A program made the translations under genes and the position numbers. Under the pieces are notes generated by a model. That model saw only the letters and a program-made list of their open reading frames with translations. It was not told the origin of the DNA and ran no database searches. Below, in pieces: positions 19,061-35,619 of a DNA stretch of 64,000 nt. Origin of the DNA: an uncultured virus (IMG/VR IMGVR_UViG_3300046331_000190) (Duplodnaviria; Heunggongvirae; Uroviricota; Caudoviricetes); IMG/VR virus record IMGVR_UViG_3300046331_000190; one strand, given 5' to 3'. Every line of letters begins with the position of its first letter. Position 1 is the stretch's first letter.

Positions 19061-19371
19061 TACCATTTAGGGGCTTCTTCTAACTCTTCCTTCGCTGTCT
19101 TAGGCTTAGGCTTTGGAGCTGGAGCTGCTTGTGCCGCAGGAGCTGCAGTCTTATTAACAATGATAGTTTTAGCTACAGGTGCTGGAGCAGCCGCCGCTTG
19201 ATTGATATTAATAACAGGAGCTGCTGCAGTTGTTGCTGCTGGAGCTGGTTCATCACCTTCACCTGTTAATTGTTTTGTAACGTAACCACCAACACCTAGT
19301 GCAATGGTACTTGCTAATCCGATTAAGATGCTCTTTAATGAGCCTCCTGTGCTTTCTGCTTCTTCTGACAT
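19060..19371 (-). CDS. Single-TM Pro/Ala-rich protein
   Basis: ILIGLASTIALGVGGYV followed by PAPAA and PKPKPK. Confidence 0.65.
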   Translation of the reverse strand: MSEEAESTGGSLKSILIGLASTIALGVGGYVTKQLTGEGDEPAPAATTAAAPVININQAAAAPAPVAKTIIVNKTAAPAAQAAPAPKPKPKTAKEELEEAPKW

Positions 19372-19376
19372 GTTGT

Positions 19377-19739: not shown

Positions 19740-19751
19740 AGTGGTTAGATA

Positions 19752-21527
19752 TTAAAAGTTGTTGTATCCAGTAATCTTAATAGTATCTGAGTTAAGTGTA
19801 ATACCTAACTGAGCACCTGTACTTGATGCAGCATCCATTACTGGACTTACTTTAATCAAGGTATTCATATCTAAACCGTTTGTTATTGCACTGAACTTAA
19901 GTTTAAACGGTACTAGTTCCCCTGTAACAGATGAGTTAAGAGCTTTATCTAATGCACCAAAACGAATAACACCAGGTTTAGTATTATCAGCAAAAGCATA
20001 CCATGTATTTGGCATTTGGTTCATGATCTCTTCAAACTTAATAGAGGCAGGATTATATCTAAACTCAAACTGTAAACCTGATAACTTATTACCGTTCGTA
20101 TTAACCTTGATTGGTATCTCGATAGTATTAGATGTTAGAGTCTGGTTAGCTAAGCTCACTGAAATGTTTGAAGTAGCAACTGTTCTGTTTAACGTCTTAT
20201 TTGCTGTTGAGTTAGTCTTTAATGATACAGCAGCATTTGTTGCAATAGTACCATTAATCATCATCTGAGATGAATGTGAACGGTTTATATCACCAGGGAT
20301 TAAGAACTTAAGTCTTAATGGTTTATTCTGACCTATGAGACCTGTTCTAAATGTAACATAACTATTCTGGATATCTTTCCAGTTTGTTGCAGTTAGTCCA
20401 TTAAAAGTACTATCTGTAAAAGTAGGAACTGACATATACATATCTGTACCTGATGTCCATCCTTGCGGACGTGATACTAGATCTGTTACTCCAATAACAT
20501 GAGAGTAAAGCTTTGTTAAATCACCACCATCAAAAGTTTTAGAGCGATTAACATCAGCAGCTAAATAACCAGCTCCTGTAATAATAGATTCAGCTTTATA
20601 TGTACCGTCTAAGTTCTGTTGTACAAACTCAGCTTGTGCTGTAGTGTAATCAGATACAGTGACGGCAGCATCATATAAATCTAACATACTATCCATATTA
20701 ACCATCATCATAACACGATAATCAGTGTTAGGTTCTAAACGTGACTGATCAATATTAACTGCACCGTTGCTTGTTGCATCAGCAATAATACCAACGTTTG
20801 TTGTTGGATTTAAAAACAAAACTCGATGTAAAGTAAAGTTATCGATGTTAGGATTTGTCTCTATAGTTGCATTAACATACTTAGTAGCTGTAGGATCAAG
20901 ATAGATAACACTTGTTAAAGGTATTGTCATCTCAGTTGAACCTGATGTACCGTTTGCATTAAATGCAGCAGCAAAGTTCATCTTGATAGGATCCCATGCA
21001 TAACCTGGAGCAGTAGTCTTTAATCTAAACTTAAGACGAATTATATCATCCCAACCTCCAGAATATGGCATACCATTTGGACTAGCCCAGTTTAAATAGA
21101 CCCTAAGAATAGTTTTAGGTCCACCAGCCGTAAAAGTATAATTAGCACGATTATAGTTAGCATTACCGTCTGGAGTGGTATTCTGTTGCGTAGATACCCA
21201 CGTATAACCAGGATAAGTGTACCAGTCCATAGTAATACTAGAACCGTAAGGAAGTATCCCACCGTTTCCACCTGTTCCTGTATTTGTAACAGTAACAAGC
21301 TCAAACGCTGTGTTCTGGTACTCAAAATCGAAATAAAGCGATCTAGCTGTAGTGTTACCATTACCATCTGCTTTTACTGATACTATAAACTCATCTCCTT
21401 TGTTGATGACTGTACCGTTAACATTTACTGATGTTGAATCATCTTGTAGTCTTAACTTAATGTTGTTCTGACTATATGCAGTACTAAAAAAAGATAGTAA
21501 GATGACTATATAAAAAAGCTTTCTCAT
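19752..21527 (-). CDS. Secreted protein with cohesin-like domains and dockerin-like Ca-binding loops
   Basis: Signal peptide; GDEFIVSV...YFDFEYQNTAFELV; AADVNRSKTFDGGD; GDINRSHS; IEIPIKV...LSGLQFEFRYNPASIKFEEI. Confidence 0.7.
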   Translation of the reverse strand: MRKLFYIVILLSFFSTAYSQNNIKLRLQDDSTSVNVNGTVINKGDEFIVSVKADGNGNTTARSLYFDFEYQNTAFELVTVTNTGTGGNGGILPYGSSITMDWYTYPGYTWVSTQQNTTPDGNANYNRANYTFTAGGPKTILRVYLNWASPNGMPYSGGWDDIIRLKFRLKTTAPGYAWDPIKMNFAAAFNANGTSGSTEMTIPLTSVIYLDPTATKYVNATIETNPNIDNFTLHRVLFLNPTTNVGIIADATSNGAVNIDQSRLEPNTDYRVMMMVNMDSMLDLYDAAVTVSDYTTAQAEFVQQNLDGTYKAESIITGAGYLAADVNRSKTFDGGDLTKLYSHVIGVTDLVSRPQGWTSGTDMYMSVPTFTDSTFNGLTATNWKDIQNSYVTFRTGLIGQNKPLRLKFLIPGDINRSHSSQMMINGTIATNAAVSLKTNSTANKTLNRTVATSNISVSLANQTLTSNTIEIPIKVNTNGNKLSGLQFEFRYNPASIKFEEIMNQMPNTWYAFADNTKPGVIRFGALDKALNSSVTGELVPFKLKFSAITNGLDMNTLIKVSPVMDAASSTGAQLGITLNSDTIKITGYNNF

Positions 21528-22060
21528 TATAATAGTTTTGTGATTAGTGTGTTACAAGATTTTTTTAGAGCTGATGATAGATTAGTTTGGTTAAACTTAC
21601 CACCTTCATCTATAACTAGCGCAGCCATTGATACTTCCTCAGCAGACTCCTCAACTATAACTGTCTTTTTTACTTTACTATCTTCAATCAACTTACCTCT
21701 CATTCGTATAACTACAGCTTCTGTATTCTTATGAAATACGGATAAGTTAGACTGAGTCTTTAATACATCAAGATAAACAATCTCTATCTCTATCTTCTTT
21801 GTAGCATATGGGTTGATTACATAATCTTTCTCTTGTAAGAACTCTTCCATAATATTCTTAACACCAAAAGCAAGATTACGATTACCAGCTAGATTACCCA
21901 TAACAATCTTATTCTCAACAGAAGAAACGTTTATGCTTTCTCCCGGTCCTATAAGATTAACAATGTTCTGAGGAGCAAAGAAGTGTGAGTATATAAAGTA
22001 ACTCTGTATAGATAATGCAGATGCTACAATACTCCAAACAACAAATAGTAATGCTTTCAT
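21527..22060 (-). CDS. Membrane-anchored CsgG-like paralog
   Basis: FGVKNIMEEFLQE and KFNQTNLSSALKKS mirror motifs of the 17772-18503 protein. Confidence 0.6.
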   Translation of the reverse strand: MKALLFVVWSIVASALSIQSYFIYSHFFAPQNIVNLIGPGESINVSSVENKIVMGNLAGNRNLAFGVKNIMEEFLQEKDYVINPYATKKIEIEIVYLDVLKTQSNLSVFHKNTEAVVIRMRGKLIEDSKVKKTVIVEESAEEVSMAALVIDEGGKFNQTNLSSALKKSCNTLITKLL

Positions 22061-22092
22061 ATACTTATGGTTTATACATGGAAAAAGAGCGA

Positions 22093-22224
22093 TTAACGCC
22101 CTTGTCCCACATATTTCTTTTTAACTGCTTTAGCTTTTGGTCCTGCAGTCTTTGCATGTTTTCCTTTACGTCTAGTGCCGAAGACAATCTTCTTTGCTTC
22201 AGTAGATCCTTTTGTTTTTGCCAT
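22093..22224 (-). CDS. Unannotated 43-aa very basic protein (MAKTKGSTEAKK...KKYVGQGR)
   Basis: Manual translation; starts just after the endolysin stop; Lys/Arg-rich. Confidence 0.7.
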   Translation of the reverse strand: MAKTKGSTEAKKIVFGTRRKGKHAKTAGPKAKAVKKKYVGQGR

Positions 22225-22230
22225 GGTTTA

Positions 22231-23067
22231 TTATGATAGTAAGTGATAATACTCATTAAAGTGTTTAATGCGATCTGTTAAGCCTATTGTACCGCCATTA
22301 ACTCGTTTAGTTACTGCTGTTACTGTTGCTGTATTAGCTCCTTTATCACAGATAGCCCATAGTTTATTGCTATTAAAGAAGAAAGCTGCTGATGCTAATG
22401 CATACTTTGTAGCTACAAGATCTGGATTAGCAACAATATTTTCTGGAACTGTAGCATCAAAACGAGTATAGTTTTCTTTACCTGTAAGTTGGATATAACC
22501 CCTTCCCCGGAACGCGAAACCGTCTCCTGATGCTTCAGGACCATTACCCATACGAGATGCATAAACTCTGTTTGCAATCTTTTCAGGTTTGCGTTCGTAT
22601 TGTGCAGCTAAAGCAGCTGTTGGGAAATACTTTTTGAAGATACCCATCAAACCTTTTGCTGAATAGTTAAGATTCTCTTGAGTAGCTCTAAAACCACCAG
22701 ACTCATGACCACACTGAGCTAAGAAATGAGCTAGGCGTAACGGCGTAGTAATATTAAATAAACGAGCTGTATCTGGAATAGCATCAATAACAGCTTGAGG
22801 TACATGTCCTTTTAATCGATCTAGTTTGAAGCTGGAAGTTACAGCAGGGGGTGTTGTAACTTGGGTGACAGGTGCTTCTGTTTGAGATGAAAACATCTTA
22901 GCCCAAGTACCATCACCAACAATACCGTCAGCAGTAAGACCGTGTGCAGATTGCCATGCTTTTACAGCAGCATCTGTCTTTGGTCCAAACTTACCAACAA
23001 CATCAACACCTAAAAACAGCTGGAGCTTCTTTACATCTTCTCCTTCAGATCCTATTCTTAATAACAT
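22231..23067 (-). CDS. Endolysin: peptidoglycan-binding domain plus GH19 lysozyme/chitinase-like domain
   Basis: FGPKTDAAVKAWQ..HGLTADGIVG; HFLAQCGHESGGF; ENLNYS; RGRGYIQLTG; VTKRVNGG. Confidence 0.92.
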   Translation of the reverse strand: MLLRIGSEGEDVKKLQLFLGVDVVGKFGPKTDAAVKAWQSAHGLTADGIVGDGTWAKMFSSQTEAPVTQVTTPPAVTSSFKLDRLKGHVPQAVIDAIPDTARLFNITTPLRLAHFLAQCGHESGGFRATQENLNYSAKGLMGIFKKYFPTAALAAQYERKPEKIANRVYASRMGNGPEASGDGFAFRGRGYIQLTGKENYTRFDATVPENIVANPDLVATKYALASAAFFFNSNKLWAICDKGANTATVTAVTKRVNGGTIGLTDRIKHFNEYYHLLS

Positions 23068-23089
23068 ATGTATAGTGGTTAGGTGATTT

Positions 23090-23278
23090 TTACTTCTTCT
23101 TACGCTTGTAGTAGCGTCTCTTTGGCTTAGCTACTGCTTCTTCAGCAATCTGCTCAGCAACTGAATCAGATATCTCAACGATCTCTTCTTTTACAGCTTC
23201 TACAATAGGTTGGACTTCTTCTAAGATAGTCTTCTTTGGACTTGTGAATAGTCCCTTAATGAATGATAAAATACTCAT
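23090..23278 (-). CDS. Small hypothetical protein with acidic core and basic tail
   Basis: 62-aa ORF in the lysis region. Confidence 0.55.
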   Translation of the reverse strand: MSILSFIKGLFTSPKKTILEEVQPIVEAVKEEIVEISDSVAEQIAEEAVAKPKRRYYKRKKK

Positions 23279-23294
23279 GGTTTATTTGTTTAGG

Positions 23295-23912
23295 TTAATT
23301 CTTTCCGATCTTGAAGTACGTCTGTATGCCAAAAGACGTTGTACCGTCCGTGGCAATGTTAACTTTCGCACCATATATTTGATCCTTCTTCGTCTTGTAT
23401 AGTATACCGCCTTCAGCACTTCGGACGTTACCCCCGCTAGTAAGGTTAAGGCCACCACCAACATAGACTTGTCGTTTAGGATCATCGTATTTAGTAATCG
23501 TTTTAGTTTCTTTTACAACAGGAATCTTATAGTTCTCTCTAAAGCTACGTCCAACAATCTTGTTTTCAGTAACAGTATCAACTATACGTATATGACCATA
23601 CTGACCAACATGAACGCTGTCTGTATAAATCTTTCTTGAAGCAAAGCGTTTAGCTAAGTCTTCGTACTGCTGCTTTAGTTTAGGATAAGCTGTATCAGCT
23701 TTATACTCAGTGCTTAATACCTCAAAAGGTACTGGAACCTCATATGGAACAGGGACTGGTTTCACAATAAGACTATCGTGCTTTGTCCAGAACGTGTCAG
23801 TAACAATAAGAGTATCAGGTTGTCTACTATTTGAGTGACCTATACATCCTCGCTGGGTCAGAACTACAAAAAACGCTATAATAATAATAGCGACGATAAC
23901 TATATTCTTCAT
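23295..23912 (-). CDS. Putative spanin-like / membrane lysis accessory protein
   Basis: N-terminal TM ending QRGC; DTLIVTDT repeats; beta-rich C-terminus; located between holins and endolysin. Confidence 0.5.
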   Translation of the reverse strand: MKNIVIVAIIIIAFFVVLTQRGCIGHSNSRQPDTLIVTDTFWTKHDSLIVKPVPVPYEVPVPFEVLSTEYKADTAYPKLKQQYEDLAKRFASRKIYTDSVHVGQYGHIRIVDTVTENKIVGRSFRENYKIPVVKETKTITKYDDPKRQVYVGGGLNLTSGGNVRSAEGGILYKTKKDQIYGAKVNIATDGTTSFGIQTYFKIGKN

Positions 23913-23914
23913 TA

Positions 23915-24202
23915 TTATCCTTCCATGTGAACATCTTCCTCTTTGTTTGAGTCTTTTGTCTTCTTACCCATGATGTTTTCAGCACCAGAGATACCAAAAG
24001 AACCTAATGTAATAATAGCAAAAGCATTAAAGATGTAGTCGTTTATAACTAACTCTTGTCCTAGATATCCTGTAACTAAGTCTACAGTCATTGCTAGTAC
24101 CATTACAGCAAAAGACATAAAACCAACTACTGACTTTTCATTCCAGTCGTTGTTGTCTTTAAATATCGTCCAAAAGCTTGTTGATTCGGTTGTCTTCTTC
24201 AT
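23915..24202 (-). CDS. Putative holin (2 TM)
   Basis: Two hydrophobic helices and a charged C-terminus; lysis region. Confidence 0.55.
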   Translation of the reverse strand: MKKTTESTSFWTIFKDNNDWNEKSVVGFMSFAVMVLAMTVDLVTGYLGQELVINDYIFNAFAIITLGSFGISGAENIMGKKTKDSNKEEDVHMEG

Positions 24203-24473
24203 CTTGGTTAGGTTTTATAGCTACCATCTCATGATAAAATACTTGAGAAGGTAGCTTATTTGGTGGGTTAGGTGTTTGTAATGCCAGTTTACTATATACA
24301 GCGCGTTCCAGATTGTCAATCCTAGTTTTATCGACGTTACTTTGCGCCATTAATAGTTTTACATCCTGTTTAACTTCGTTGACATCTTGCCAGATCATAA
24401 TCCCTAAAAGAGATACTAGACTGGGAAATATCCACGCTTTGAATGCTGAGATGGTTGGGTTCTCTCTGGTCAT
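24159..24473 (-). CDS. Putative holin/antiholin (1 TM plus coiled coil)
   Basis: WIFPSLVSLLGIMIW followed by a heptad region. Confidence 0.5.
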   Translation of the reverse strand: MTRENPTISAFKAWIFPSLVSLLGIMIWQDVNEVKQDVKLLMAQSNVDKTRIDNLERAVYSKLALQTPNPPNKLPSQVFYHEMVAIKPNQDEEDNRINKLLDDI

Positions 24474-24519
24474 TGTTTAAAATAGTTTAGCAAATCCTGC
24501 TTTTATAATCGTTATATCA

Positions 24520-25056
24520 TTATGACGACCAAGAATTAAGGTGGTGATGAAAAGCATACTGCTTTAAAAAGTCAGTAAAGATCATCGTATTAATATCATG
24601 AGAAGCTAACTTACTTCCAAACCAATCAGGTCCATAAAACTTTGTCTTGATATTAACCATACTGCAAAGATCTTCTATAACTGGATGACCTTTATCAGCA
24701 CCTATTACACCATTCATTATACGTTTTTGTTCTGGTCCCCAAGTTAAAAATATGTTGTCTAACTCTCTTAGTGCATCAAATGAATTAACTGGTTCAAAAT
24801 CAACATCAATATACAAACCACCGTATTCTTTTAACAAAAACATTCTAAGTACATCTGCTTGAAAAGCGTAGTGTTTAGTTTGTCCAAAGTAATCAAATAT
24901 TTCTTGCATCTCTTTGGGCATCTCAGGTAGATTATCATCTTTCCAAAACATGTATTCCCATGTAGGATTCATGCTTTTGACTAATCTACAACACCGTCTT
25001 TCTCTCACTTGCATCACATTGGGACCTACCCAAATCTGATGTATTATGTTATTCAT
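24520..25056 (-). CDS. Glycosyltransferase with DXD motif (GT32/OCH1-like)
   Basis: IIHQIWVG; ADVLR..LL..YGGLYIDVD; YGP; HHHLNSW. Confidence 0.88.
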   Translation of the reverse strand: MNNIIHQIWVGPNVMQVRERRCCRLVKSMNPTWEYMFWKDDNLPEMPKEMQEIFDYFGQTKHYAFQADVLRMFLLKEYGGLYIDVDFEPVNSFDALRELDNIFLTWGPEQKRIMNGVIGADKGHPVIEDLCSMVNIKTKFYGPDWFGSKLASHDINTMIFTDFLKQYAFHHHLNSWSS

Positions 25057-25703
25057 GGTGAAGTATTCTGAAAGATACGTCCTTTAAACTCACTTGTTAA
25101 CAAGCTATGTAAAGATTTTGGATCTTGAGTTTCAGTTAGTTTATGATATTCAATACCAATGTACTTAAACTGATTAATCTTATGTATTATACTAGGTATT
25201 ATTTTATACTCAGCTCCTTCACAATCTACTTTTAAATACTTACAGTCAGTAGTAATATACTTATTAATGGTTTCAGTTATACAATATGATATAACACCTC
25301 CTTTTGTATACTCTGAAGATGCACCTGTATTAAATACTGGAGTACTGATCTTTATCTTATCCCCTTCCTTATCAGTAATTGCTACATTATGCAGCTCTAT
25401 ATCTGATAATGATAAACCGTTTAAGAGAATGTTTTTCTTAAACTGCTCATAGTTTATTTGTACTGGTTCAAAAGCTATAACTTTGCATCCAAACTTCTTT
25501 TTAACATATATAGAAAACATACCTATGTTGCCTCCTATATCTATTACAGTATCTGTTGGTAAAAGCTTTATTTGCTCTAAGCCATAACAGTCTGATTCAA
25601 GTTCCGTTGTTACGATTTTTATTGTATCAGAAGTAGTTAAATCTTCAAAAACTAAAGGTATACTTCTAATACTACCGTAACAACGAGACCTGTTATAATC
25701 CAT
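25053..25703 (-). CDS. FkbM-family methyltransferase
   Basis: VIDIGGNIG, AFEP and LKVDCEGAE motifs. Confidence 0.9.
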   Translation of the reverse strand: MDYNRSRCYGSIRSIPLVFEDLTTSDTIKIVTTELESDCYGLEQIKLLPTDTVIDIGGNIGMFSIYVKKKFGCKVIAFEPVQINYEQFKKNILLNGLSLSDIELHNVAITDKEGDKIKISTPVFNTGASSEYTKGGVISYCITETINKYITTDCKYLKVDCEGAEYKIIPSIIHKINQFKYIGIEYHKLTETQDPKSLHSLLTSEFKGRIFQNTSP

Positions 25704-25708
25704 TAAGC

Positions 25709-25939
25709 TTATGCTTCTTCTGAAGGCTGTAAATGCTTTGGTAACTCTAAATCTAAGCGAGTAATCTCAGCTTCGCATTCAGCTTTTGTAGCAGCAACAA
25801 ATACTTCTGTTGAACCACCTGTTTCACTTTGATATGCTGCTTCGATTAAATCAATAACCTTACCACTATTATGAATCAATCTCCAGCTTTGAGTAGCCGA
25901 TACAGTTTTGATTCCATTATTATCTGCTTGAATATACAT
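25709..25939 (-). CDS. Hypothetical protein (possible fibre chaperone)
   Basis: 76-aa ORF downstream of the fibre-like gene. Confidence 0.5.
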   Translation of the reverse strand: MYIQADNNGIKTVSATQSWRLIHNSGKVIDLIEAAYQSETGGSTEVFVAATKAECEAEITRLDLELPKHLQPSEEA

Positions 25940-25967
25940 TGTTATATCTTTTATATGTTAGTTAAAA

Positions 25968-27086
25968 CTAGTTATGGCTAATTGTAAACCCTCTACCTAA
26001 TAGTATAGCTTTTGCTGCTAAACCAGTGGATGAAGGAGCTGCATTTGTACCACCTGTTAAATTAATTGTACCATTGTTAGATGGATCAGTACCATTTGTA
26101 CCATCTAAACTAGCTAGTAAAGTTAAAATGCCATCAACTGAAGATTGTGTTAAAGCACAATCTTGGAAGTTAATATTTGCAGGACCCCAAGAAAGACCTA
26201 ATGTTTTTAGTGTACCAATAGTACCTAAAACCACATTAGCTAACTGAGAATGTCCATTATAAGATACATAAGCACTCTCATAATTAATTATAGCTGGGAC
26301 ACGTAACGTATTTAATACCGATGCTCCAGAACCCATTCCACTACTTACATGATACACTGATTTCCAAAGAATAGCTGATGGTAGATTAATTACTTGTAAA
26401 AAACCAGGTTCGTAAATAGAAAGAGCAGCTTGTTTTAATAGCGGAAAGTTTGATGGCCCAATCTCAGCTATAGCTGTTACACCATTAATTTGTATCTGAC
26501 CATAAGAAGAAAGATCCGTTAATGATGAAAAGTTTAAAGTTGTTAATGCAGGACTATTGTTATTTATCGAAATACCTTTACATACTTGTAGTAGTGGAAA
26601 GTTAACAGTTGTTAATGCTGCACCTGAAAAATTAATACCACTCATTGGACTATCTTGAGCAATAGTATCAGGAAAAGAAAAAGTAGTAACCACAGTTGAT
26701 CCAGTAATGTAAAGATCACCAATATAACGTGTATAAAAAGCTATATTTGTTGCGGTAGTACTAACGCTACTACCACCATATCCACCGTAGCCATTTGAAC
26801 CAGCAGCATTAAAACTAAATGATGCATAGTTACCAACTTCTGTAGTATAAACACCGTTAACAGTCTTAGGTACAGAAGCTTTTTGTACATAAGTTGCAGT
26901 AATATCACTTCCTAATATACCATTCGCAGTTACTCCAAATGATGGAGCTGAACCTCCGCCTGATGCTAAATCTGCAATAGCTTGAGCTGTTACTTTTTTT
27001 GTAGTACCACTTTGTACTATTGGTAATACTTCTGTACCTGCTAGGGCAGATGCTGAAGCTAATTGACTAATCTTTTTATTTGCCAT
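25968..27086 (-). CDS. Virion fibre / receptor-binding-like protein with LRR-like repeats
   Basis: MANKKISQL..A..LAGTE.LPIVQ.G.TKK N-terminus; LTTVNFPLL/LTTLNFSSL repeats; G/S/T/N-rich. Confidence 0.65.
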   Translation of the reverse strand: MANKKISQLASASALAGTEVLPIVQSGTTKKVTAQAIADLASGGGSAPSFGVTANGILGSDITATYVQKASVPKTVNGVYTTEVGNYASFSFNAAGSNGYGGYGGSSVSTTATNIAFYTRYIGDLYITGSTVVTTFSFPDTIAQDSPMSGINFSGAALTTVNFPLLQVCKGISINNNSPALTTLNFSSLTDLSSYGQIQINGVTAIAEIGPSNFPLLKQAALSIYEPGFLQVINLPSAILWKSVYHVSSGMGSGASVLNTLRVPAIINYESAYVSYNGHSQLANVVLGTIGTLKTLGLSWGPANINFQDCALTQSSVDGILTLLASLDGTNGTDPSNNGTINLTGGTNAAPSSTGLAAKAILLGRGFTISHN

Positions 27087-27105
27087 GTTTAATATATGTT
27101 AAATG

Positions 27106-27423
27106 TTATAGTGTGATTAAGTCTTCGTTTTCTGCAACTAGACTAAAGTTATCTTCTGTTAATAAAGACTCTGCTCCTGCTGCTGTAACGTCTAAGATGT
27201 TACCTTTTGGTACCGTAAGTACAGCTACTAATGAATTAGGTATAATAGCACCTTTTTTGTTTGTACGAACAACGTACTTTAAACCATCAGGATGAGTTGG
27301 TAAAACTGTAGCACTAGATATTTCTAGAGTATTAGCTGGAACTTTACCAGTAGTACCCATCATAGTACCAGGGATTGGAAACCCTAAAGCATCTTTCTGA
27401 GCATAGTATTTTAATGTTGCCAT
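27106..27423 (-). CDS. Putative small structural protein
   Basis: First gene of the late operon; duplicated Y.....G..IP.. motif; LLTEDN...ENED tail. Confidence 0.55.
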   Translation of the reverse strand: MATLKYYAQKDALGFPIPGTMMGTTGKVPANTLEISSATVLPTHPDGLKYVVRTNKKGAIIPNSLVAVLTVPKGNILDVTAAGAESLLTEDNFSLVAENEDLITL

Positions 27424-27457
27424 ATTATATAAAGTTTTTAATAGCGTTAAGCAGTAG

Positions 27458-27488
27458 TTTGGAGATATGAATCAAAGCATTATCTTTG
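27458..27488 (+). promoter_or_regulatory. Canonical Bacteroidota primary-sigma promoter for the replication operon
   Basis: TTTG (27458-61), 19-nt spacer, TATCTTTG (27481-88). Confidence 0.8.
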
Positions 27489-27508
27489 CATCCCCTTTAG
27501 AGAATCTC

Positions 27509-27522
27509 TACATAATAATATA
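27509..27522 (-). promoter_or_regulatory. Candidate phage late-promoter motif
   Basis: Minus strand TATATTATTATGTA; near-identical copy at 61109-61123. Confidence 0.45.
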
Positions 27523-27559
27523 TTAAATATTGTACAAATAACCTAAACAAAAGTAGCCT

Positions 27560-28144
27560 ATGATTATAAACCTCTGGACACCACTGATTCTTAACCGTCT
27601 AACACTGAATCAGTTTGTTTACTTAGATTTTAGACACAAGGGTATTATACCTCCCCCTGATCTTATTGATAGCCCTAATATTGACAAAGCGTTAATACTG
27701 AAAGGATTCATGACAGATAAAGGAGCTATTACCCCGTCTGGTATAAAAATAATAGATGAGTTCTATGCTCAGATTGAGCCAAAGAAGAAAGTCGTTATAA
27801 CAAGCCAGATGAAACACCCGCAGGTAGATGACCTGTTACTTGATTATCGAGACTATTTCCCAAAAGGTGCAGTATCAGGAAGAGTACTACGTACTAGCCC
27901 AACTGATTTAAAGAAACGTTTTAATGACTTCTTTAAAAAGTATCCTGATTATACCTGGGAAGAAGTGCTTGATGCTACTGAGATGTATGCAAATACGTTT
28001 AAGAGTAGTGCAAATGGACATACTTATATGAAAAACTCAACCTACTTTATAATGAAAGATGGAGTATCTGAACTAGCTTCTACTATCGAGAGTCTTCGTG
28101 ACACAGATGGTCAAGTTTTGTCATCAGGATATGTTCATGACTAG
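27560..28144 (+). CDS. Hypothetical replication-associated protein (initiator/loader candidate)
   Basis: Directly upstream of DnaB; FFKKYPDYTWEEVLDATEMY...YFIMK motif. Confidence 0.55.
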   Translation: MIINLWTPLILNRLTLNQFVYLDFRHKGIIPPPDLIDSPNIDKALILKGFMTDKGAITPSGIKIIDEFYAQIEPKKKVVITSQMKHPQVDDLLLDYRDYFPKGAVSGRVLRTSPTDLKKRFNDFFKKYPDYTWEEVLDATEMYANTFKSSANGHTYMKNSTYFIMKDGVSELASTIESLRDTDGQVLSSGYVHD

Positions 28145-28182
28145 TTGTAAATGCAGTAACTTTTTCGTATTTTTATCTTCCT

Positions 28183-29190
28183 ATGAGCTCACAACTAACA
28201 GACATTTTAGACGACGTAGTACCCTTATCGGTCATAAACCAAAAGGGCTTAGACTACATTGAGAAGCGCAAAACAGGACAGATCAAATCAGTCAAAACAC
28301 CTTGGAACACAATCAACGATGTGACCATGGGAGGATTTGAGTGGGGAACTATCTCTGTTGTTGCTGCCAGATCAGGAGGTGGTAAGACTACCTTCATGCT
28401 TGAGTTAACAAGAAGTGTTCATGACTTAAACCCAACACAGGATTTTATCGTACTTGACTTTCAGTTTGAGATGACAGACGAGAAGATTGCCTTGAGAGAG
28501 TATAGTCAGAAGACAGGCTTATCCGTAAAGGAACTTGCTAGTGCAAAGAAGAAACTTGATGACAGTGTTGTCAGCTTTCTTAAAGGTTATGTAGACTACA
28601 AGAAAGAAAAATCAGGAGGTGCTGATAAGATCTTTGTCATTACAAAGAGGTGTACTGTCTCTAATATTAGAGCATATATACTTGCCATGTGGACGAAGCA
28701 TCGTAAGCCAATGATTATCACTATTGACCATAGTTATCTTGTAATGATGGGTACTGAGAAGAGTGAGCTTGCAATGCTCCATAACCTTGGTACTATGATG
28801 ACTGAGTTAAAGAAAGCAATACCATGCTTGTTTATCGTTCTTAATCAGATGAACAGAGATATCGAGAGTAATGAGAGACGTCAACCAGGTAAGGCTGGTA
28901 ACTATCCTAATACATCAGATATCTATGGTGGTGATGCTTTGTATAACCATGCTGACTTAATGCTTGCACTAGACAGACCTTTTGAAAAGAACCTAATGAT
29001 TTACGGCCCTAATAAGTACAAAGTAGAACAAGACCACGTTGCTGTTCACGTACTAAAAGCTAGAGATGGTAAATCAGATGCTGTGTTATTCTTTAGGGGT
29101 GACTTTGCAGCTAACAAGTTTATTGAATGTCCTGAACCTGATAGAGATGTTGATGCTATCAGTACTAGAAGAAGAGTAGTAAATCCTTAA
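28183..29190 (+). CDS. DnaB-like replicative helicase (C-terminal ATPase domain only)
   Basis: AARSGGGKT, FQFEM, IDHS, LNQMNR and KARDG motifs. Confidence 0.9.
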   Translation: MSSQLTDILDDVVPLSVINQKGLDYIEKRKTGQIKSVKTPWNTINDVTMGGFEWGTISVVAARSGGGKTTFMLELTRSVHDLNPTQDFIVLDFQFEMTDEKIALREYSQKTGLSVKELASAKKKLDDSVVSFLKGYVDYKKEKSGGADKIFVITKRCTVSNIRAYILAMWTKHRKPMIITIDHSYLVMMGTEKSELAMLHNLGTMMTELKKAIPCLFIVLNQMNRDIESNERRQPGKAGNYPNTSDIYGGDALYNHADLMLALDRPFEKNLMIYGPNKYKVEQDHVAVHVLKARDGKSDAVLFFRGDFAANKFIECPEPDRDVDAISTRRRVVNP

Positions 29191-29192
29191 TA

Positions 29193-29942
29193 ATGTTAAT
29201 AAATATGATGAATCAATTAAAAGGACAGTTTAGTATACTGAACTCAGTCCCAAAAGCAGTGCCTGACTTAGGCCCGAATGTACTTGGTAAAACAAACATG
29301 ACTATCGACGAGAAGAAACAGTTGTATAGTAAGCTAACACAATTTCACAAAGATGCTTTAGCTGACTATGGTTTCCCAAACGCAAAGGTTGAGTTTAAAA
29401 CTATTTGGCATGACGCCACAACAGACCTAGATTCAGTAAATATCTATGGTAATCAGTTTAGACGTAACTTCTTCTTTGAGATCTTGAAGTCTTCAGATGA
29501 TAAGAAAGGTTATGTGGCAATGGATGAGCGCATCTTATTTACTGTAGATACAGATTGTGCTTACTGGGAACAGTATCCATTAGCAAATGTTAACGCTAAT
29601 AACTTACCAGATGCCGTAGAGAATAGATTGTATAGTGTTCCTTTAATAGATCTTATACCAGTTAATCTAACAAGATCTTCGGTATCTACTGTACAACAGT
29701 CTTGCGCAACAAGAGTACAGCATGCATATGCACCGTTACAAGATGAACCTGAACTACCAAAACAAGCATCGCTTGACTTTGAGTTAGAGCAGTTATCATC
29801 AAATGATTTCAAAGCAGAAGACCAACACTATAGTAACCTTAGTGTACTTGACTTGCTTGCAATCATTCAGTGTGAGCCAATAAGCTCAAAAGATTATCTT
29901 AATCAAGCAATAAATAAAGTAAAACAAAAAAGAAGCAAATAA
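29193..29942 (+). CDS. Hypothetical replication-module protein
   Basis: 249-aa ORF between the helicase and the ATPase. Confidence 0.6.
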   Translation: MLINMMNQLKGQFSILNSVPKAVPDLGPNVLGKTNMTIDEKKQLYSKLTQFHKDALADYGFPNAKVEFKTIWHDATTDLDSVNIYGNQFRRNFFFEILKSSDDKKGYVAMDERILFTVDTDCAYWEQYPLANVNANNLPDAVENRLYSVPLIDLIPVNLTRSSVSTVQQSCATRVQHAYAPLQDEPELPKQASLDFELEQLSSNDFKAEDQHYSNLSVLDLLAIIQCEPISSKDYLNQAINKVKQKRSK

Positions 29943-30682
29943 TGGAAGAGTTCACATTACCTATAGATAAAGTTAAAGCTGAAGTAAAGAATCCAAAGAA
30001 TCTTGTTATATTCGCAAAGCCAAAAGTTGGCAAGACTGAGTTACTAGCAGGACTACCTGATTGTCTAATCTTAGACCTTGAGAGTGGTACTGACTATGTT
30101 GATGCATTAAAGATCAAGGCAACATCTGTTAGAGACATAAAAGCCATCGGTGAGCAGATCTTAAAAGCAAATAAACCGTATAAGTACATCGCAGTAGATA
30201 CAATCACTGCACTTGAAGACATCTGTTTACCATTCGCAGAAGAGTTATATGGAAAGACTTCAATGGGAAAGAACTGGTTAACAGAAGGTAAGCCTAAGTA
30301 TACAAGCTTATTGAACTTACCAAACGGCGCGGGTTATCCGTGGTTACGTGAGGCATTCACAAAGGTTATTGATTACATCAAGACTCTTGCTCCTCACATT
30401 ATTTTAGTTGGACACGTTAAAGATACAATGTTAGAAAAGAACGGAGCAGAAGTAAATGTTCTTGACTTAGATCTAACAGGTAAGCTTAAGCGTATCACTA
30501 CATCTAACTCAGATGCTATTGGGTATCTATATCGCAAGGGAAAGCAAAACTTCCTGAGCTTTAAAACAACAGATGAAATCTCATGTGGGGCTAGACCAAC
30601 TCACTTAAGAGATGAAGAGTTTATGGTATCAGAGATGACACCAACCGGTCTGGTAACATATTGGGACCAAGTATTCATTTAA
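29942..30682 (+). CDS. AAA_24/Sak4-like ATPase (recombination)
   Basis: AKPKVGKT, LDLESG, AVDTIT, GAGY, LVGH and DAIGY motifs. Confidence 0.8.
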   Translation: MEEFTLPIDKVKAEVKNPKNLVIFAKPKVGKTELLAGLPDCLILDLESGTDYVDALKIKATSVRDIKAIGEQILKANKPYKYIAVDTITALEDICLPFAEELYGKTSMGKNWLTEGKPKYTSLLNLPNGAGYPWLREAFTKVIDYIKTLAPHIILVGHVKDTMLEKNGAEVNVLDLDLTGKLKRITTSNSDAIGYLYRKGKQNFLSFKTTDEISCGARPTHLRDEEFMVSEMTPTGLVTYWDQVFI

Positions 30683-30712
30683 TGTAAACAACAATAATAA
30701 ACAAAAACAATC

Positions 30713-31405
30713 ATGATTAGTACAAAAGATTTTGCAGCAGTAGAAGAAAAAGGAACAAAGACTAGCCCAATCGTAGGACCAGGAACAACAGAAGCACGTA
30801 TCCTTAATGTTCAGTTAACAAAGAACCGTAGTTTTGATACTGATGGTTCAGTTGCTTTAGTGTTAAACATTGAAACTCCAGCAGTAACAGATCCAAACTT
30901 CCAAGGTTTCTTTATTAACCCTAACGATCCTTCAAGCCCTCGTCACTTAGGTCAGATAGGTCGCATCAAGTACAAAGCTTACCCAATGAAGGATAGCACT
31001 GTTACTCGTAATATGCCAGATGGTACTACAAAGACTATCAATAATAAGCGTGACAATGAGTATTTACAAGCAGTTATCAACTTAGCAAACACTTTAGGTG
31101 CTCCTATTAGAGAAGCTGTTGATAATATTGCAGCATCTACTATCTTTGATCACGTTGATGCAGTATCAAAGATCTTTGCTAACCGTTCAATGGTATTCAC
31201 TATTGCAGCAAGCGGATACAAGAATGCAAAAGGTTATACTGCATATGACTTGTTCTTACCGTATGATAAGACAGGAAAGAAAGCTTATGTGTTAAAGGGT
31301 AATGAAGCTGATCTTATTGCTTTTGATAAGTCACTACATGTTAGTGAACCAAAAGAAGATAAGCAGGTTGCAGGTTTCGAACCAAACAACGATTTCAGCT
31401 TATAA
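30713..31405 (+). CDS. Putative ssDNA-binding protein
   Basis: Follows the Sak4-like ATPase; acidic/aromatic C-terminal tail (NNDFSL); terminator downstream. Confidence 0.45.
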   Translation: MISTKDFAAVEEKGTKTSPIVGPGTTEARILNVQLTKNRSFDTDGSVALVLNIETPAVTDPNFQGFFINPNDPSSPRHLGQIGRIKYKAYPMKDSTVTRNMPDGTTKTINNKRDNEYLQAVINLANTLGAPIREAVDNIAASTIFDHVDAVSKIFANRSMVFTIAASGYKNAKGYTAYDLFLPYDKTGKKAYVLKGNEADLIAFDKSLHVSEPKEDKQVAGFEPNNDFSL

Positions 31406-31426
31406 TATTAGTGGTTAGGTGATGTA

Positions 31427-31463
31427 AGAAAGGGTGGGGATTTTATCTCTGCCCTTCTTTTTT
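31427..31463 (+). terminator. Intrinsic terminator
   Basis: AAGGGTGGGGA-TTTTA-TCTCTGCCCTT stem followed by CTTTTTT. Confidence 0.8.
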
Positions 31464-31484
31464 CTCCTTTAATTACAACAGGTT

Positions 31485-32495
31485 ATGCTAAGTACAAAAA
31501 ACTTAATCTCAGATGTCAAGCTCGTACCATCAACATGGATATTCGAGCACTATTGCAAGCTTCCTGATAAGCTTGTTGGTCAAGATCTTAAGGTAAAGAG
31601 TCTTTTCAATCCAAAGGAACGTACACCAAGTATGTGTATCTACTTTGATCAGAAGAAAAGTATCTATAAGTTTAAGGACTTCTCAACAGATACAGGCGGA
31701 GGAGCTATTGATTTAGTAAAGCATTTGTACCAGTGTAGCTTTGGACAGGCAAGCGGAACTATTATTGAAGATTACAATGAGTTTATCTTACATAATAATG
31801 GAGGCTTTGATGTTCAAGAGTTTAAAAGCTATAGTAAATACCGTGTTAAAGATACAACTACACGGCCCTGGACAACAGCAGATCAATACTACTGGACTAA
31901 GTTTAACATAGGCAGTAGATTACTTGATGAGCATAATGTTAGGCCCTTACAATCCTACATTATGGCTAAAGAAGAAGACGGTCAAAACAAAGAGCTTGAG
32001 ATATTAGGCAAGCATTTGTATGGCTACTTTACAAGTGACAGTCAGGTATACAAGATATACCAACCCACTGTAAAGGATAAGAAGTTTATTAAGGTTGCGA
32101 ACTATATACAAGGTTCAGAGCAACTAAAAGGACATGATTACTTAGTTATTACCTCTAGTCTTAAAGACTTGATGGCATTAAAATCATTAAAGCTTAGTGT
32201 CGATGTGATTGCACCAGACTCTGAGAACACAATGATAAAGCAAGAAGTCATTGATAAGTATAAGAATCAATATAAGAAGATTATTACTATCTTTGACAAC
32301 GATGAGGCAGGACTTCGGGCAATGAAGAAGTATCAAGAGCACTATGATATACCTTATGTTCATTTAAAGATGAGCAAAGATTTAGCTGATGCTATTAGAG
32401 ACTTTGGACCTAGAGAAGTAATGATCAATTTAGTCCCTTTAATAACAAAACACGTAGTAGATAATGAGTCAAACAACTTGGATGCACAAGCGTAA
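31485..32495 (+). CDS. DNA primase (TOPRIM)
   Basis: N-terminal ERTPS...FKDFS region; SSLKD; APDSE; FDNDEAG; SKDLAD. Confidence 0.85.
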   Translation: MLSTKNLISDVKLVPSTWIFEHYCKLPDKLVGQDLKVKSLFNPKERTPSMCIYFDQKKSIYKFKDFSTDTGGGAIDLVKHLYQCSFGQASGTIIEDYNEFILHNNGGFDVQEFKSYSKYRVKDTTTRPWTTADQYYWTKFNIGSRLLDEHNVRPLQSYIMAKEEDGQNKELEILGKHLYGYFTSDSQVYKIYQPTVKDKKFIKVANYIQGSEQLKGHDYLVITSSLKDLMALKSLKLSVDVIAPDSENTMIKQEVIDKYKNQYKKIITIFDNDEAGLRAMKKYQEHYDIPYVHLKMSKDLADAIRDFGPREVMINLVPLITKHVVDNESNNLDAQA

Positions 32496-32907
32496 AGCTA
32501 TCACTTCTCTTGATAAGCTTCCTAATTACCATGAACTAGAAGGATTCGTCTATAAGATCACTAATCTAACAACAGGTCAGATCTATATAGGTAAGAAGTC
32601 TTTGTACCATACAAAGAAGAAGAAAATCTCAGCTCGTAGTAAAGCAGAAACAAAAACGAGAAAGACATTCGAGTATATAAAGAAAGAGTCTGACTGGTTA
32701 AAGTATTATGGATCAAGCAAAGAACTATCAGCAGATGTTAAGTTACTCGGAGTTGAGCACTTCTCAAGAGAAATCTTAGAGCTATGCAAAACAAAGAAGT
32801 ACTTGACATATGCTGAGTTTGCTTGGCAAGTTAAGTTAGACGTATTAAGAACTAACTCCTATAACGGAAACATACTAGGTAAATGGTATGGTCGTGATAT
32901 GGAATAA
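32464..32907 (+). CDS. GIY-YIG endonuclease (Seg-like)
   Basis: GFVYKITN...YIGKK, YYGSS, FSREIL and YNGNI motifs. Confidence 0.8.
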   Translation: MSQTTWMHKRKAITSLDKLPNYHELEGFVYKITNLTTGQIYIGKKSLYHTKKKKISARSKAETKTRKTFEYIKKESDWLKYYGSSKELSADVKLLGVEHFSREILELCKTKKYLTYAEFAWQVKLDVLRTNSYNGNILGKWYGRDME

Positions 32908-32918
32908 ACAGAATTATT

Positions 32919-33263
32919 ATGGCACAACTACATGAGACACTGATGGGTCAAAAGCTGATATCAACAAATATACCAGGTATCCATCATGAGTTAAAACGCA
33001 TAGCAGACTTATTAGAAAGTTATGTTGTAATGCAGACAAAAAAACTAAGACCTAGTGACAACAGAAGTATTGTTCTTGTAAAACCAGGTATATACAGAGT
33101 AACTCTCTGTGGAGATTTATGGACACTAGAACAAGATAGGTTCAACTCAAAAATATGGCGAGGTGTATTAGAAACTAGTGTAGGTTCAAAGAAAGTTGGT
33201 ACATCAGTAAAAGCACAAACAAAAAGAGATGCTCTTATAATGATGGAAGAAAAATACAGTTAA
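32919..33263 (+). CDS. Hypothetical protein
   Basis: 114-aa ORF. Confidence 0.6.
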   Translation: MAQLHETLMGQKLISTNIPGIHHELKRIADLLESYVVMQTKKLRPSDNRSIVLVKPGIYRVTLCGDLWTLEQDRFNSKIWRGVLETSVGSKKVGTSVKAQTKRDALIMMEEKYS

Positions 33264-33264
33264 T

Positions 33265-33438
33265 ATGGAAGACCCAATTATTGAAGCTGTTATAGAACAG
33301 ATGAAGGAAGACTTTGCGATGCAGGATGTAACAGCTATCTATGAGCTACTTGAGTACCTTCCAAAGAAAAATCTATTAGGCTATCTACCAGAAGAGGTAG
33401 CAGAACAACTTAAACAACAAAAACATGGCGGACAATAA
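33265..33438 (+). CDS. Unannotated 57-aa protein (MEDPIIEAVIEQ...)
   Basis: Manual translation; fills the gap in the operon. Confidence 0.6.
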   Translation: MEDPIIEAVIEQMKEDFAMQDVTAIYELLEYLPKKNLLGYLPEEVAEQLKQQKHGGQ

Positions 33439-33604
33439 AAACATTGAAGAAGCTTGCGTTGATTTGATTGGCTTTCTTGAAAGAATAGAGTCAACAACAA
33501 ATGACAAGATTACAGGTGCTGAGATACGTAACTATATGTATCAGCAAGGATACTGGTCAAAACAAGAAGAGCATGATCACAACAATGAATCAACTGGCAT
33601 CTAA
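33425..33604 (+). CDS. Unannotated 59-aa protein (MADNKNIEEAC...)
   Basis: Manual translation; stop lies 1 nt before the nuclease ATG. Confidence 0.55.
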   Translation: MADNKNIEEACVDLIGFLERIESTTNDKITGAEIRNYMYQQGYWSKQEEHDHNNESTGI

Positions 33605-33605
33605 T

Positions 33606-34604
33606 ATGGAAGAGCAAATGTTAATGAATAGCTTCTATGAGAAGCCTTTTCAGTTTAGTTACAGTAGTCTTAGCAGATTACTATGGAGTCCAAAGTCTTT
33701 TAAGGACGTATATATCAATGGTATAAGAGAAGAGATTGTTGCTGATCACCTTATCAAGGGTAAGCTTATACATAATCTGATCTTAGAACCGGATAGCATT
33801 ACAAAGAACTATATCGTAATGCCTACTGAGTTACCTGCTGCAAAAGCAAAGATGGTTATCGATAGAGTGTTTGCACATAAGCAACAGTTACAAGATGATT
33901 CAAGAGAAGAGCTTGATCAGTTTGGTGGAGCTATCTTAGATATCATGGCTGACATGAACTACTTTCAGAACTTAAAGACTGATGCTCAACGTCTTGATAA
34001 GATAATAACACTTGACCATCAAGTATACTGGTCTTTCTTAAAGATGAAGAAGGGCAAAGATCTAATCGATCAAGATACTCTAACATTCTGTACAGAAGCG
34101 GTTAATACTATCAAGAGTCATGCAGATATCTGTGATCTACTAGGCTTACACTTAGATAGCATGTCTGGTAATATTGAGACAGTAAACGAAAAGATGTTCT
34201 ATATCGATAAGTTTAAAGACTATCCGTTTGGACTTAAAGGTATTATTGACAACTTAGTTATCGATCACAATAAGAAGATCATCTATATCAATGACTTAAA
34301 GACTACATCAAAGGATCTTATTAACTTTGATGGATCTATCGAGCATTATGATTACTGGATGCAAGCTGCTATCTATGTTCAGTTAGTTAATGAAAACTAT
34401 GCTCATCTTATTGGATACACTATTGAGTTTAACTTCGTAGCTATCGATAAAAACTACTGCACATATGCCTTTGGTGTATCTGCTGAGAGTATTATTGCAT
34501 GGACTGAACGAATGATGGATACTTTAAACAAAGCTAAGTGGCATTACGAAGAAAGAAACTACTATCTTCCGTTTGAACTTGCTAGTAAAAAAGTATATTT
34601 GTAG
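33606..34604 (+). CDS. PD-(D/E)XK exonuclease (RecB/ExoVIII-like)
   Basis: FSYSSL, GKLIH, LKGIID, INDLKTT and YWMQAAIY motifs; likely start ATG 33606. Confidence 0.85.
   Translation: MEEQMLMNSFYEKPFQFSYSSLSRLLWSPKSFKDVYINGIREEIVADHLIKGKLIHNLILEPDSITKNYIVMPTELPAAKAKMVIDRVFAHKQQLQDDSREELDQFGGAILDIMADMNYFQNLKTDAQRLDKIITLDHQVYWSFLKMKKGKDLIDQDTLTFCTEAVNTIKSHADICDLLGLHLDSMSGNIETVNEKMFYIDKFKDYPFGLKGIIDNLVIDHNKKIIYINDLKTTSKDLINFDGSIEHYDYWMQAAIYVQLVNENYAHLIGYTIEFNFVAIDKNYCTYAFGVSAESIIAWTERMMDTLNKAKWHYEERNYYLPFELASKKVYL
34572..34601 (+). promoter_or_regulatory. Bacteroidota-type promoter
   Basis: TTTG (34572-75), 18-nt spacer, TATATTTG (34594-601). Confidence 0.6.
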
Positions 34605-34621
34605 TATAAAACCAACATACA

Positions 34622-35197
34622 ATGATAGACGCACACAAGATACCATCGTTATATAGCAGATACTTTCAGAAGTCAAAGACATTTTTATTACCGTTTGTTC
34701 TTACAGATCGTAAGTCAATGACTCAACCTGAGAATGTATATATAGCATGGAAAGATAGATATGCTGTAAAAGATAAGCGTTTGATTGTTGTTTACAAAGC
34801 AGGGAATAAATCCGCTGCGTTCAAGAAGGCGGAGGCTGTACTAACAGCTTCCCCTTTATTTGAATCAAGAGAAGAGTACAACGATAGGATTATCTTTATC
34901 TTTAACTTTACAAAGAAGAGAAGAGACTGGAAGTGCTTTATCGATGGTAAATATTCTATGCTTGATGAGGATGCTAAACTAGATATCCTTTACTTCTTTA
35001 GAAAAGAACCAAAAGAGTGCACATACATTAACTCATACTTATACCCTGAATACCACTTTGATCACTACGCAAGTTTACTTGATGTTGATGTTAGAGTACT
35101 TATTGATATAGGTGAGTTATGTGATAAGTATGATCAAGACAAAGAAACATTAACATTAGTTACTGCAGATTTGGAGATCTTAGAAAAAGCTGTTTAA
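34622..35197 (+). CDS. Hypothetical phage protein
   Basis: 191 aa; YFQKSKTFL, FIDGKYS and IGELCD motifs. Confidence 0.65.
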   Translation: MIDAHKIPSLYSRYFQKSKTFLLPFVLTDRKSMTQPENVYIAWKDRYAVKDKRLIVVYKAGNKSAAFKKAEAVLTASPLFESREEYNDRIIFIFNFTKKRRDWKCFIDGKYSMLDEDAKLDILYFFRKEPKECTYINSYLYPEYHFDHYASLLDVDVRVLIDIGELCDKYDQDKETLTLVTADLEILEKAV

Positions 35198-35600: not shown

Positions 35601-35619
35601 TTTAAGTCCAAAATGTACT

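What the first reader, a model, noticed from the sequence alone, without database searches (positions are those of the whole stretch)
23073..31423. 3'-UTR 15-mer exactly antisense to the endolysin translation-start region
Seen: TAGTGGTTAGGTGAT occurs on the + strand at 23073-23087 and at 31409-31423, both intergenic. The first copy lies in the leader of the minus-strand endolysin (mRNA AUCACCUAACCACUA-UACAU-AUG). The second lies in the + transcript between the stop of the SSB-like gene and its terminator. Ten nt of it (TAGTGGTTAG, 19739-19748) also match the start region of the lipoprotein gene. Inference: a replication-phase transcript, or a 3'-derived sRNA, could pair with and silence lysis/envelope mRNAs until late, acting as a trans-antisense lysis timer. 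A shared protein-binding DNA site is the alternative.
Basis: partly seen in the sequence, partly recalled or inferred. Interest (0 to 1): 0.7.

Follow-up and report, generated by a model that had tools for sequence, protein, structure and literature searches.

The report
Phage mRNA tail mirrors endolysin start
In a crAss-like lake phage, the short tail of a DNA-replication operon is the exact, conserved complement of the start region of the cell-bursting enzyme's gene, so this tail likely pairs with that message and would hold back lysis, though the pairing is untested.

Summary
The 15-mer is real (23073-23087 and 31409-31423). It is invariant at both sites in all close relatives (10 and 15 contigs) while nearby third codon positions vary at about 50%. 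The predicted duplex (15 bp, bulge, 6 bp over the AUG; -25.9 kcal/mol) ranks first among 139 own start regions, and none of 3,663 foreign ones reaches it. The guide is open in terminated transcripts and buried in read-through ones. Two other lineages show the same design with unrelated words: L176 against its endolysin start, and L181/L293 against the next gene, where guide and target changed together. That favours RNA pairing over a shared DNA site. Against: most of 67 other relatives show no strong own target, the enrichment needs a post-hoc filter, the lipoprotein 10-mer is broken in one relative, and no small RNA, strand or repression was shown. Earlier unchecked notes of this scan report similar anti-start tails in at least seven other Bacteroidota-type phages; I saw no note naming an endolysin start as target. 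Verdict: a probable trans-acting antisense tail that damps lysis-gene translation; new variant of a known kind.

The parts
31409..31423 (+). Antisense core (15 nt) in the 3' UTR of the SSB-like gene; exact complement of the endolysin leader
   Evidence: invariant in 15 of 15 related contigs covering it
31403..31408 (+). Stop codon and next bases; predicted 6-bp extension of the duplex over the endolysin AUG, kept by a wobble pair in relatives with the other stop codon
   Evidence: duplex; energies -25.5 to -27.4 in relatives
31430..31465 (+). Intrinsic-terminator-like hairpin (31430-31456) and U tract
   Evidence: the 12 stem pairs (columns 61-72) are kept in 10 of 10 aligned sequences, mostly through one-sided changes; a hairpin follows the SSB-like gene in nearly all 100 distinct 3' ends, judged by eye
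30713..31405 (+). SSB-like gene (230 aa, acidic tail ending in aromatic/hydrophobic residues), last gene before the terminator in the helicase-Sak4-SSB run
23073..23087 (-). Target site, positions -20 to -6 of the endolysin translation start, inside a 22-nt spacer
   Evidence: invariant in 10 of 10 related contigs while both flanks vary
22231..23067 (-). Endolysin (peptidoglycan-binding domain plus GH19 catalytic domain)
23090..23278 (-). 62-aa ORF with a basic tail directly upstream of the endolysin; homologous ORFs precede the endolysin in most relatives listed
21527..22060 (-). Gene directly downstream of the endolysin; its slot is the predicted target in L181/L184/L287/L293 but not in this genome
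19739..19748 (-). 10-nt secondary match at the start of the lipoprotein-like gene 19377-19739 (rank 2 of 139, -19.2 kcal/mol); not conserved in G001
31457..31487 (+). U tract and primase leader, predicted to fold back on the guide in read-through transcripts

Best explanation
The tail of the replication operon carries a conserved exact complement of the endolysin start region and likely acts as a trans antisense RNA: transcripts predicted to end at the hairpin would expose 15-21 bases that would pair over the leader and AUG of the late lysis mRNA and block its translation until late mRNA outnumbers them. Shown: complementarity, conservation at both sites, the hairpin, and recurrence with other words in two further lineages. 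Predicted: the duplex, and exposure in terminated but not read-through RNA. Inferred: termination there, replication genes expressed before lysis genes (by analogy with crAss001 and phi14:2), repression, and the threshold behaviour. Whether the active molecule is the whole mRNA or a processed 3' fragment is open. Across the family the same slot appears re-targetable (endolysin, the gene after it, or the helicase), and is often without any strong own target.
For: Rank 1 of 139 own start regions, z -5.6; 0 of 3,663 foreign start windows reach -25.9 (best -23.3). No variable position in either 15-mer, while third codon positions nearby vary at 51% and 46% and the other spacers listed vary at 18-61% of positions. 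The L009 endolysin spacer equals that of distant L086 plus nine bases, and those nine complete the match. Opening cost 2.3 kcal/mol terminated against 9.7 read-through; target opening 1.7; same direction in 7 of 7 relatives, though by only 0.8-2.7 in four. Independent lineages at about 58-60% primase identity: L176 matches its endolysin start over 12 nt across the AUG (-20.5); L181/L184/L287 match the next gene over 13 nt plus bulge plus 5 (-25.1); L293 (76% to L181) matches the same gene over 16 nt with different bases in both partners. Own pairs beat swapped pairs: L181 guide -25.1 own vs -17.3; L293 guide -24.2 own vs -20.5. Leaving out this clade, matches of 12 nt or more with at least 3 G/C: 3 seen vs 0.29 expected among 67 segments, all three on the endolysin or the next gene; sense orientation 0 vs 0.18. 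Metatranscriptome contigs of strain variants cover the operon, and in runs X3 and X10 a contig spans the UTR.
Against: Most relatives show no strong own target: median p 0.38, 2 of 51 below 0.05. No fixed family-wide target: endolysin mean rank 0.47 in 21 lineages, helicase 0.47 in 57. Without the G/C filter, which I chose after seeing the hits, the count is 6 vs 2.4, no better than the meaningless complement-not-reversed control (5 vs 2.3; that control also gave 1 filtered hit vs 0.11). L181 and L293 are one lineage pair, and counting the neighbouring gene as a hit was post hoc. Of 17 distinct later-fetched loci with both genes, only the three already known contigs matched. L071/L072/L290/L291 keep nearly the L181 guide, and L071 has a different gene in the target slot; L090/L288 keep the L176 guide without the endolysin match (best lysis-side pair -15.6, rank 3 of 123). 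Start regions can be conserved alone: the helicase leader has a 16-nt invariant run. The L181 pair gives only about two concerted changes, and none was seen within this clade. RNA contigs give no strand, ends or level.
Confidence: 0.55

Rival explanations
1. Coincidence: start regions here are A/C-rich and terminator-proximal tails U/G-rich, so long complements arise now and then, and each site is conserved for its own local reason.
For: 22 repeats of 15 nt or more in the window; 26 of 150 intergenic simulations hold one; the 12-nt core precedes hairpins in unrelated viral contigs L024, L039, L041, L043 and L045 with no second copy in those loci; unfiltered enrichment equals a composition control; most relatives lack a target.
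Against: Expected 0.011 for the arrangement; z -5.6 in three lineages; the three high-complexity hits outside this clade all fall on the endolysin or the next gene; concerted change between L181 and L293.
Confidence: 0.2
2. DNA-level copying without regulation: the phage's Sak4-like annealing protein and exonuclease patched one spacer from the other through a short shared word, and the copies are simply young or re-homogenised.
For: The copies are direct repeats on the DNA; the endolysin spacer looks like an older spacer plus nine bases identical to the UTR; Sak4-like and exonuclease genes are present.
Against: Both copies are unchanged in G001, which differs at 32% of third positions and 17.5% of intergenic positions; matches appear only in the RNA-antisense orientation (sense 0 at 12 nt or more). 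Copying could be how the pairing arose, with selection keeping it.
Confidence: 0.12
3. The segment works mainly in cis, folding onto the U tract and primase leader to tune read-through or primase translation; the endolysin match is secondary.
For: Predicted fold-back in read-through RNA; in L181/L071 part of the guide also complements the primase leader, and L071 keeps it without the trans target.
Against: Primase leaders are not a family-wide partner (7 of 69 in the top tenth, 6.9 expected); L293 lacks the primase-leader match yet has the 16-nt trans match; cis pairing does not explain why the endolysin leader is conserved.
Confidence: 0.08
4. Both copies are a binding site on DNA for one protein.
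For: Exact direct repeat, both intergenic and conserved.
Against: Only two full copies per genome; other lineages use unrelated words in the same slot while keeping complementarity to their own target; a site just upstream of a terminator is an odd place for a promoter or operator (inference).
Confidence: 0.05

Closest known systems
3'-UTR-derived base-pairing sRNAs that share the parent terminator; in Bacteroides, FopS-14, with GibS as a start-region binder (PMC11697453, passages; PMC7398697 seen only as a search listing)
   Same: Unstructured seed directly before an intrinsic terminator at the end of an mRNA; pairing to a translation initiation region in trans.
   Different: Phage-encoded, aimed at the phage's own lysis gene, with perfect 15-nt complementarity and a word that differs by lineage; no separate RNA species shown; no Rfam family.
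PAK_P4as15 of Pseudomonas phage PAK_P4 (PMC5563952 and PMC12197685, passages)
   Same: Antisense RNA proposed to repress endolysin translation and delay lysis; present in one phage and absent in a relative.
   Different: About 550 nt and cis-encoded over the gene; here a short guide encoded 8.3 kb away in another operon's tail. Its repression is also only proposed.
Phage T4 gene e leader hairpin (PMC3014915, passages)
   Same: Base pairing over the start region keeps lysozyme untranslated early (100-fold in T4) and is tied to an earlier transcript class.
   Different: Intramolecular and relieved by late promoters; here the partner is a separate, opposite-strand transcript.
Trans-acting phage sRNAs such as PreS of lambda and sar of P22 (listed in review PMC12197685, passages); c4 of P1/P7 (named in earlier scan notes and recalled, not read)
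   Same: Phage RNA acting by base pairing on an mRNA.
   Different: Free-standing small RNA genes of temperate phages, acting on host replication or immunity genes rather than a lysis gene from an mRNA tail.

Membership tests
3'-UTR-derived base-pairing sRNA | Lies in a 3' UTR and shares an intrinsic terminator with the mRNA | tested here: met
   (terminator predicted, not mapped)
3'-UTR-derived base-pairing sRNA | Accessible, conserved seed complementary to a target start region | tested here: met
   conserved within the clade only
3'-UTR-derived base-pairing sRNA | Guide and target co-evolve | tested here: inconclusive
   No change to test within this clade; concerted change in L181 vs L293; guides without matched target in L071 and L090/L288
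3'-UTR-derived base-pairing sRNA | A discrete small RNA released by processing or an internal promoter | tested here: inconclusive
   Only assembled RNA contigs were available; a TAnnTTTG-like word (consensus recalled) at 31141 is kept in 7 of 8 relatives, is also fixed by the coding sequence and is at chance frequency
3'-UTR-derived base-pairing sRNA | Represses the target, rescued by compensatory mutation | not testable with these tools
   needs a reporter
cis-encoded antisense RNA (PAK_P4as15 type) | Transcribed from the strand opposite the target gene at the same locus | tested here: not met
   The guide lies 8.3 kb from the target
T4 gene e type leader hairpin | Inhibitory helix formed within the target mRNA | tested here: not met
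   The endolysin leader is predicted unstructured, z +1.7, opening 1.7 kcal/mol
Any Rfam family | Score at the gathering threshold | tested here: not met
   Only L20_leader at 24.4 bits (threshold 58.7, E 0.48) in 19000-36000

The most novel reading that the evidence does not exclude
crAss-like phages use the terminator-proximal tail of the SSB operon as a re-programmable antisense guide: lineages rewrite 12-20 bases, or copy them into a leader, to wire replication-phase transcription to a chosen gene, and at least three lineages aimed it at the lysis cassette to set a lysis threshold. This would be a candidate mechanism for the unexplained delayed lysis of crAss-like phages.
Probability: 0.35. 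Interest if true: 0.8.

Novelty: new variant of a known kind. Interest (0 to 1): 0.58.

Why it matters
If true, a crAss-like phage links lysis to replication through an mRNA tail acting in trans, with no regulator protein. Delayed release of progeny in crAss001 is described as unexplained (PMC8375218, passages); this gives a small, exact, testable candidate, although I did not look for such a tail in crAss001 itself. It also suggests how new RNA regulation can arise in Bacteroidota, whose mRNAs lack Shine-Dalgarno sequences and are tuned by structure and upstream bases (PMC6847099, abstract). I found no paper describing such tails in Bacteroidota phages in searches; the library lacks most subscription journals.

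Tried and rejected
Antisense ORF starting in the segment: frames vary and 42 of 49 ORFs are 40 codons or shorter. Host target: one 19-nt scan of 185,579 genomes with the L165-clade guide gave 2 hits, both mid-gene; this window's own guide was not scanned against hosts, and only one guide was tried. Pairing with the SSB gene's own start: weak throughout. A family-wide fixed target: not found in 11 gene families tested. My early idea that L132 shows a compensatory insertion at the endolysin leader: dropped, since that pair is only -12.4 and the helicase ranks first at -20.1. Long exact matches in whole records of distant relatives: at most 13 nt, chance-like, in 16 records (one 27-nt hit was the site itself). 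The p-values near 0.14 for this clade are a floor set by pool size and were replaced. RNA contigs: in X2 and X8 a contig stops at 31482 and 31421, in X3 and X10 contigs run to 31592 and 31559, and X1 bridges the site; this neither shows nor excludes termination or a small RNA. A degenerate scan for more L181-type guides gave no new SSB locus among 120. Twenty metagenome contigs were not held whole, so for them, including L132, L176 and L181, only +/-10 kb was examined. The look-up for notes on look-alike stretches found none.
Full report
Setting. The window is the first 64 kb of a 125,156-nt virus record whose ends share sequence. Its primase is closest to those of crAss-like phages of Bacteroides and Cellulophaga, at up to 31% identity. 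RNA runs holding the stretch are freshwater metatranscriptomes. A Bacteroidota host is inferred from this and from the A/C-rich leaders without Shine-Dalgarno motifs. A + strand run (helicase, Sak4-like protein, SSB-like protein, primase, exonuclease, polymerase) faces away from a - strand block holding the endolysin.

The observation. One copy fills most of the 22-nt spacer between a 62-aa ORF and the endolysin AUG. The other follows the SSB-like stop and precedes the strongest terminator-like hairpin of 16000-35900. A 15-mer repeat alone is common: 22 in the window, and some intergenic one in 26 of 150 simulations. A 15-nt complement between any of 11 terminator-proximal segments and 141 start windows is expected 0.011 times, a figure for an arrangement defined after the fact.

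Predicted pairing. The duplex is 15 bp, a 5-nt bulge, then 6 bp over the AUG, -25.9 kcal/mol. It ranks first of 139 own start regions (z -5.6), and 0 of 3,663 foreign start windows reach it. The target is unstructured. The guide costs 2.3 kcal/mol to open in a terminated transcript and 9.7 in a read-through one, where it folds onto the U tract and primase leader. The direction was the same in 7 of 7 relatives, by only 0.8-2.7 kcal/mol in four.

Close relatives. Both 15-mers are unchanged in every contig that covers them: 10 for the endolysin site and 15 for the UTR, after removing duplicate loci from the 14 and 19 listed. Third codon positions nearby vary at 51% and 46%. The most distant, G001, differs at 32% of third positions and 17.5% of intergenic positions, and the bases flanking the target vary on both sides. 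Caveats: many of these contigs are near-identical, and the helicase leader also holds a 16-nt invariant run. L018 (68% SSB identity) keeps 12 of the 15 bases, but its contig ends before the endolysin. The endolysin spacer of L009 equals that of distant L086 plus nine bases that complete the match, which suggests the leader was rewritten to fit; shared ancestry of the two spacers is inferred. The lipoprotein-like site ranks second here but is broken in G001, and a similar leader occurs in L132, whose guide does not match it. I do not count it as a supported target.

Distant relatives. An SSB homolog was found in 151 of 162 loci, with 100 distinct 3' ends, nearly all a short variable segment plus a G-rich hairpin (by eye). 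Most have no strong own target (median p 0.38; 2 of 51 below 0.05) and no gene family is a fixed partner. A few stand out. L176 matches its endolysin start over 12 nt across the AUG. L181, L184 and L287 match the gene directly after the endolysin over 13 nt, a bulge and 5 nt. L293, 76% identical to L181 in primase, matches the same gene over 16 nt, with about two changes mirrored in guide and target. Own pairs beat swapped pairs, and guides of one clade pair poorly with targets of another. L132 (-20.1) and several others rank the helicase start first. Leaving out this clade, 67 segments gave 3 matches of 12 nt or more with at least 3 G/C among 2,211 own start windows, against 0.29 expected from 157,694 foreign ones; all three are on the endolysin or the next gene. 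Controls gave 0 (sense), 0 (reversed) and 1 (complement not reversed). The G/C filter was chosen after seeing the hits; without it the count (6 vs 2.4) equals the last control (5 vs 2.3). Two of the three hits are one lineage pair. A later set of 138 loci had 24 with both genes, 17 distinct, and added no new match. L071 keeps nearly the L181 guide with a different gene in the target slot, and L090/L288 keep the L176 guide with only a 10-bp pairing to the gene after the endolysin. I read this as a labile slot that is sometimes wired to a lysis-side gene; the statistical support outside this clade is moderate.

Expression. Contigs of eight RNA runs, from strain variants mostly 90-99% alike, cover parts of the operon; contigs in X1, X3 and X10 span the UTR. 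They give no strand, ends or levels, and DNA carry-over was not excluded. A separate small RNA is neither shown nor excluded. An internal promoter-like word at 31141 is inconclusive.

Mechanism. I commit to trans antisense damping. Terminated replication-operon RNA, whole or as a 3' fragment, would pair over the endolysin start and keep it untranslated until late mRNA exceeds it. In phi14:2 the replicative module is early and opposite in direction to middle and late genes (bioRxiv 10.1101/2020.03.07.982082, passages). In crAss001 replication genes are middle, lysis genes late, and all classes persist once on (PMC8375218, passages). That fits a threshold better than a clean switch. Timing in this phage is inferred by analogy.

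Rivals. Coincidence from mirrored base composition remains real: the 12-nt core also precedes hairpins in five unrelated viral contigs without a second copy in the fetched loci. DNA copying may be how the match arose, but does not explain its persistence in G001 or the antisense-only orientation. A cis role on the primase leader may coexist. A shared DNA-binding site fits poorly with lineage-specific words.

Comparison. It would work like a 3'-UTR-derived sRNA (FopS-14, GibS; PMC11697453, passages) and serve the end of T4's gene e hairpin (PMC3014915, passages) and of the proposed PAK_P4as15 (PMC5563952, PMC12197685, passages). It is not cis-encoded and not intramolecular, and no Rfam family matches. 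Membership among 3'-derived sRNAs is unproven because no discrete RNA or repression was shown. Searches showed no paper on such tails in Bacteroidota phages; no supplements were read. Earlier notes of this scan describe similar anti-start tails in at least seven other genomes, two with helicase co-variation, and one in an endolysin's own 3' UTR. They are unchecked and were used as leads only; I had seen the helicase pattern before reading them.

Verdict. Observation confirmed; interpretation partly supported. Probable lineage-specific trans antisense tail against the endolysin start, confidence 0.55; new variant of a known kind; interest 0.58.

Noticed in passing
window 35598-35646 and homologs in L101, L089, L180, L166, L080, L174, L169, L188: A second tail of the same kind follows the 126-aa gene before the polymerase. 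In eight relatives it complements that gene's own start over 9-11 nt, and a change in the third codon is mirrored in the tail (four versus four). In this genome and G001 it instead matches the leader of gene 6679-7179 over 10-11 AU-rich bases (-10.3 kcal/mol).
   Followed up: partly
L132:6861, L057/L294, L018:4782, L080, L127, L168, L174, L189, L195: In several lineages the SSB tail best matches the helicase start region, with different words in each; not significant family-wide.
   Followed up: partly
loci L058-L208, hairpin after the SSB-like gene: Many distant relatives keep the same short loop word in this terminator hairpin while the stems vary (by eye), which may point to a binding partner; this window's loop differs.
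   Followed up: no
L024:8083, L039:1248, L041:614, L043:940, L045:10000 (oriented): The 12-nt core of the motif sits just before a hairpin in five unrelated viral contigs; in L045 it is also the leader of an opposite-strand gene.
   Followed up: partly
window 16128-22060: A block of membrane or secreted proteins downstream of the endolysin, one with a cohesin domain (19752-21527), swaps genes between relatives; no family names for the rest.
   Followed up: no
G000 1-690 and 124668-125156: The record's two ends share sequence, so it is probably a circular or terminally redundant, near-complete genome.
   Followed up: no
window 27000-27479: In RNA run X1 a 15.9-kb contig on the late side ends at 27479 at depth 404, against about 52 on the replication side, placing a boundary in the divergent spacer 27424-27559 (contig depth only).
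   Followed up: no
G000 76343-76506: Another terminator-proximal U/G-rich tail matches the common leader words of genes 34622 and 19060 over 10-11 nt (-20.8 kcal/mol).
   Followed up: no
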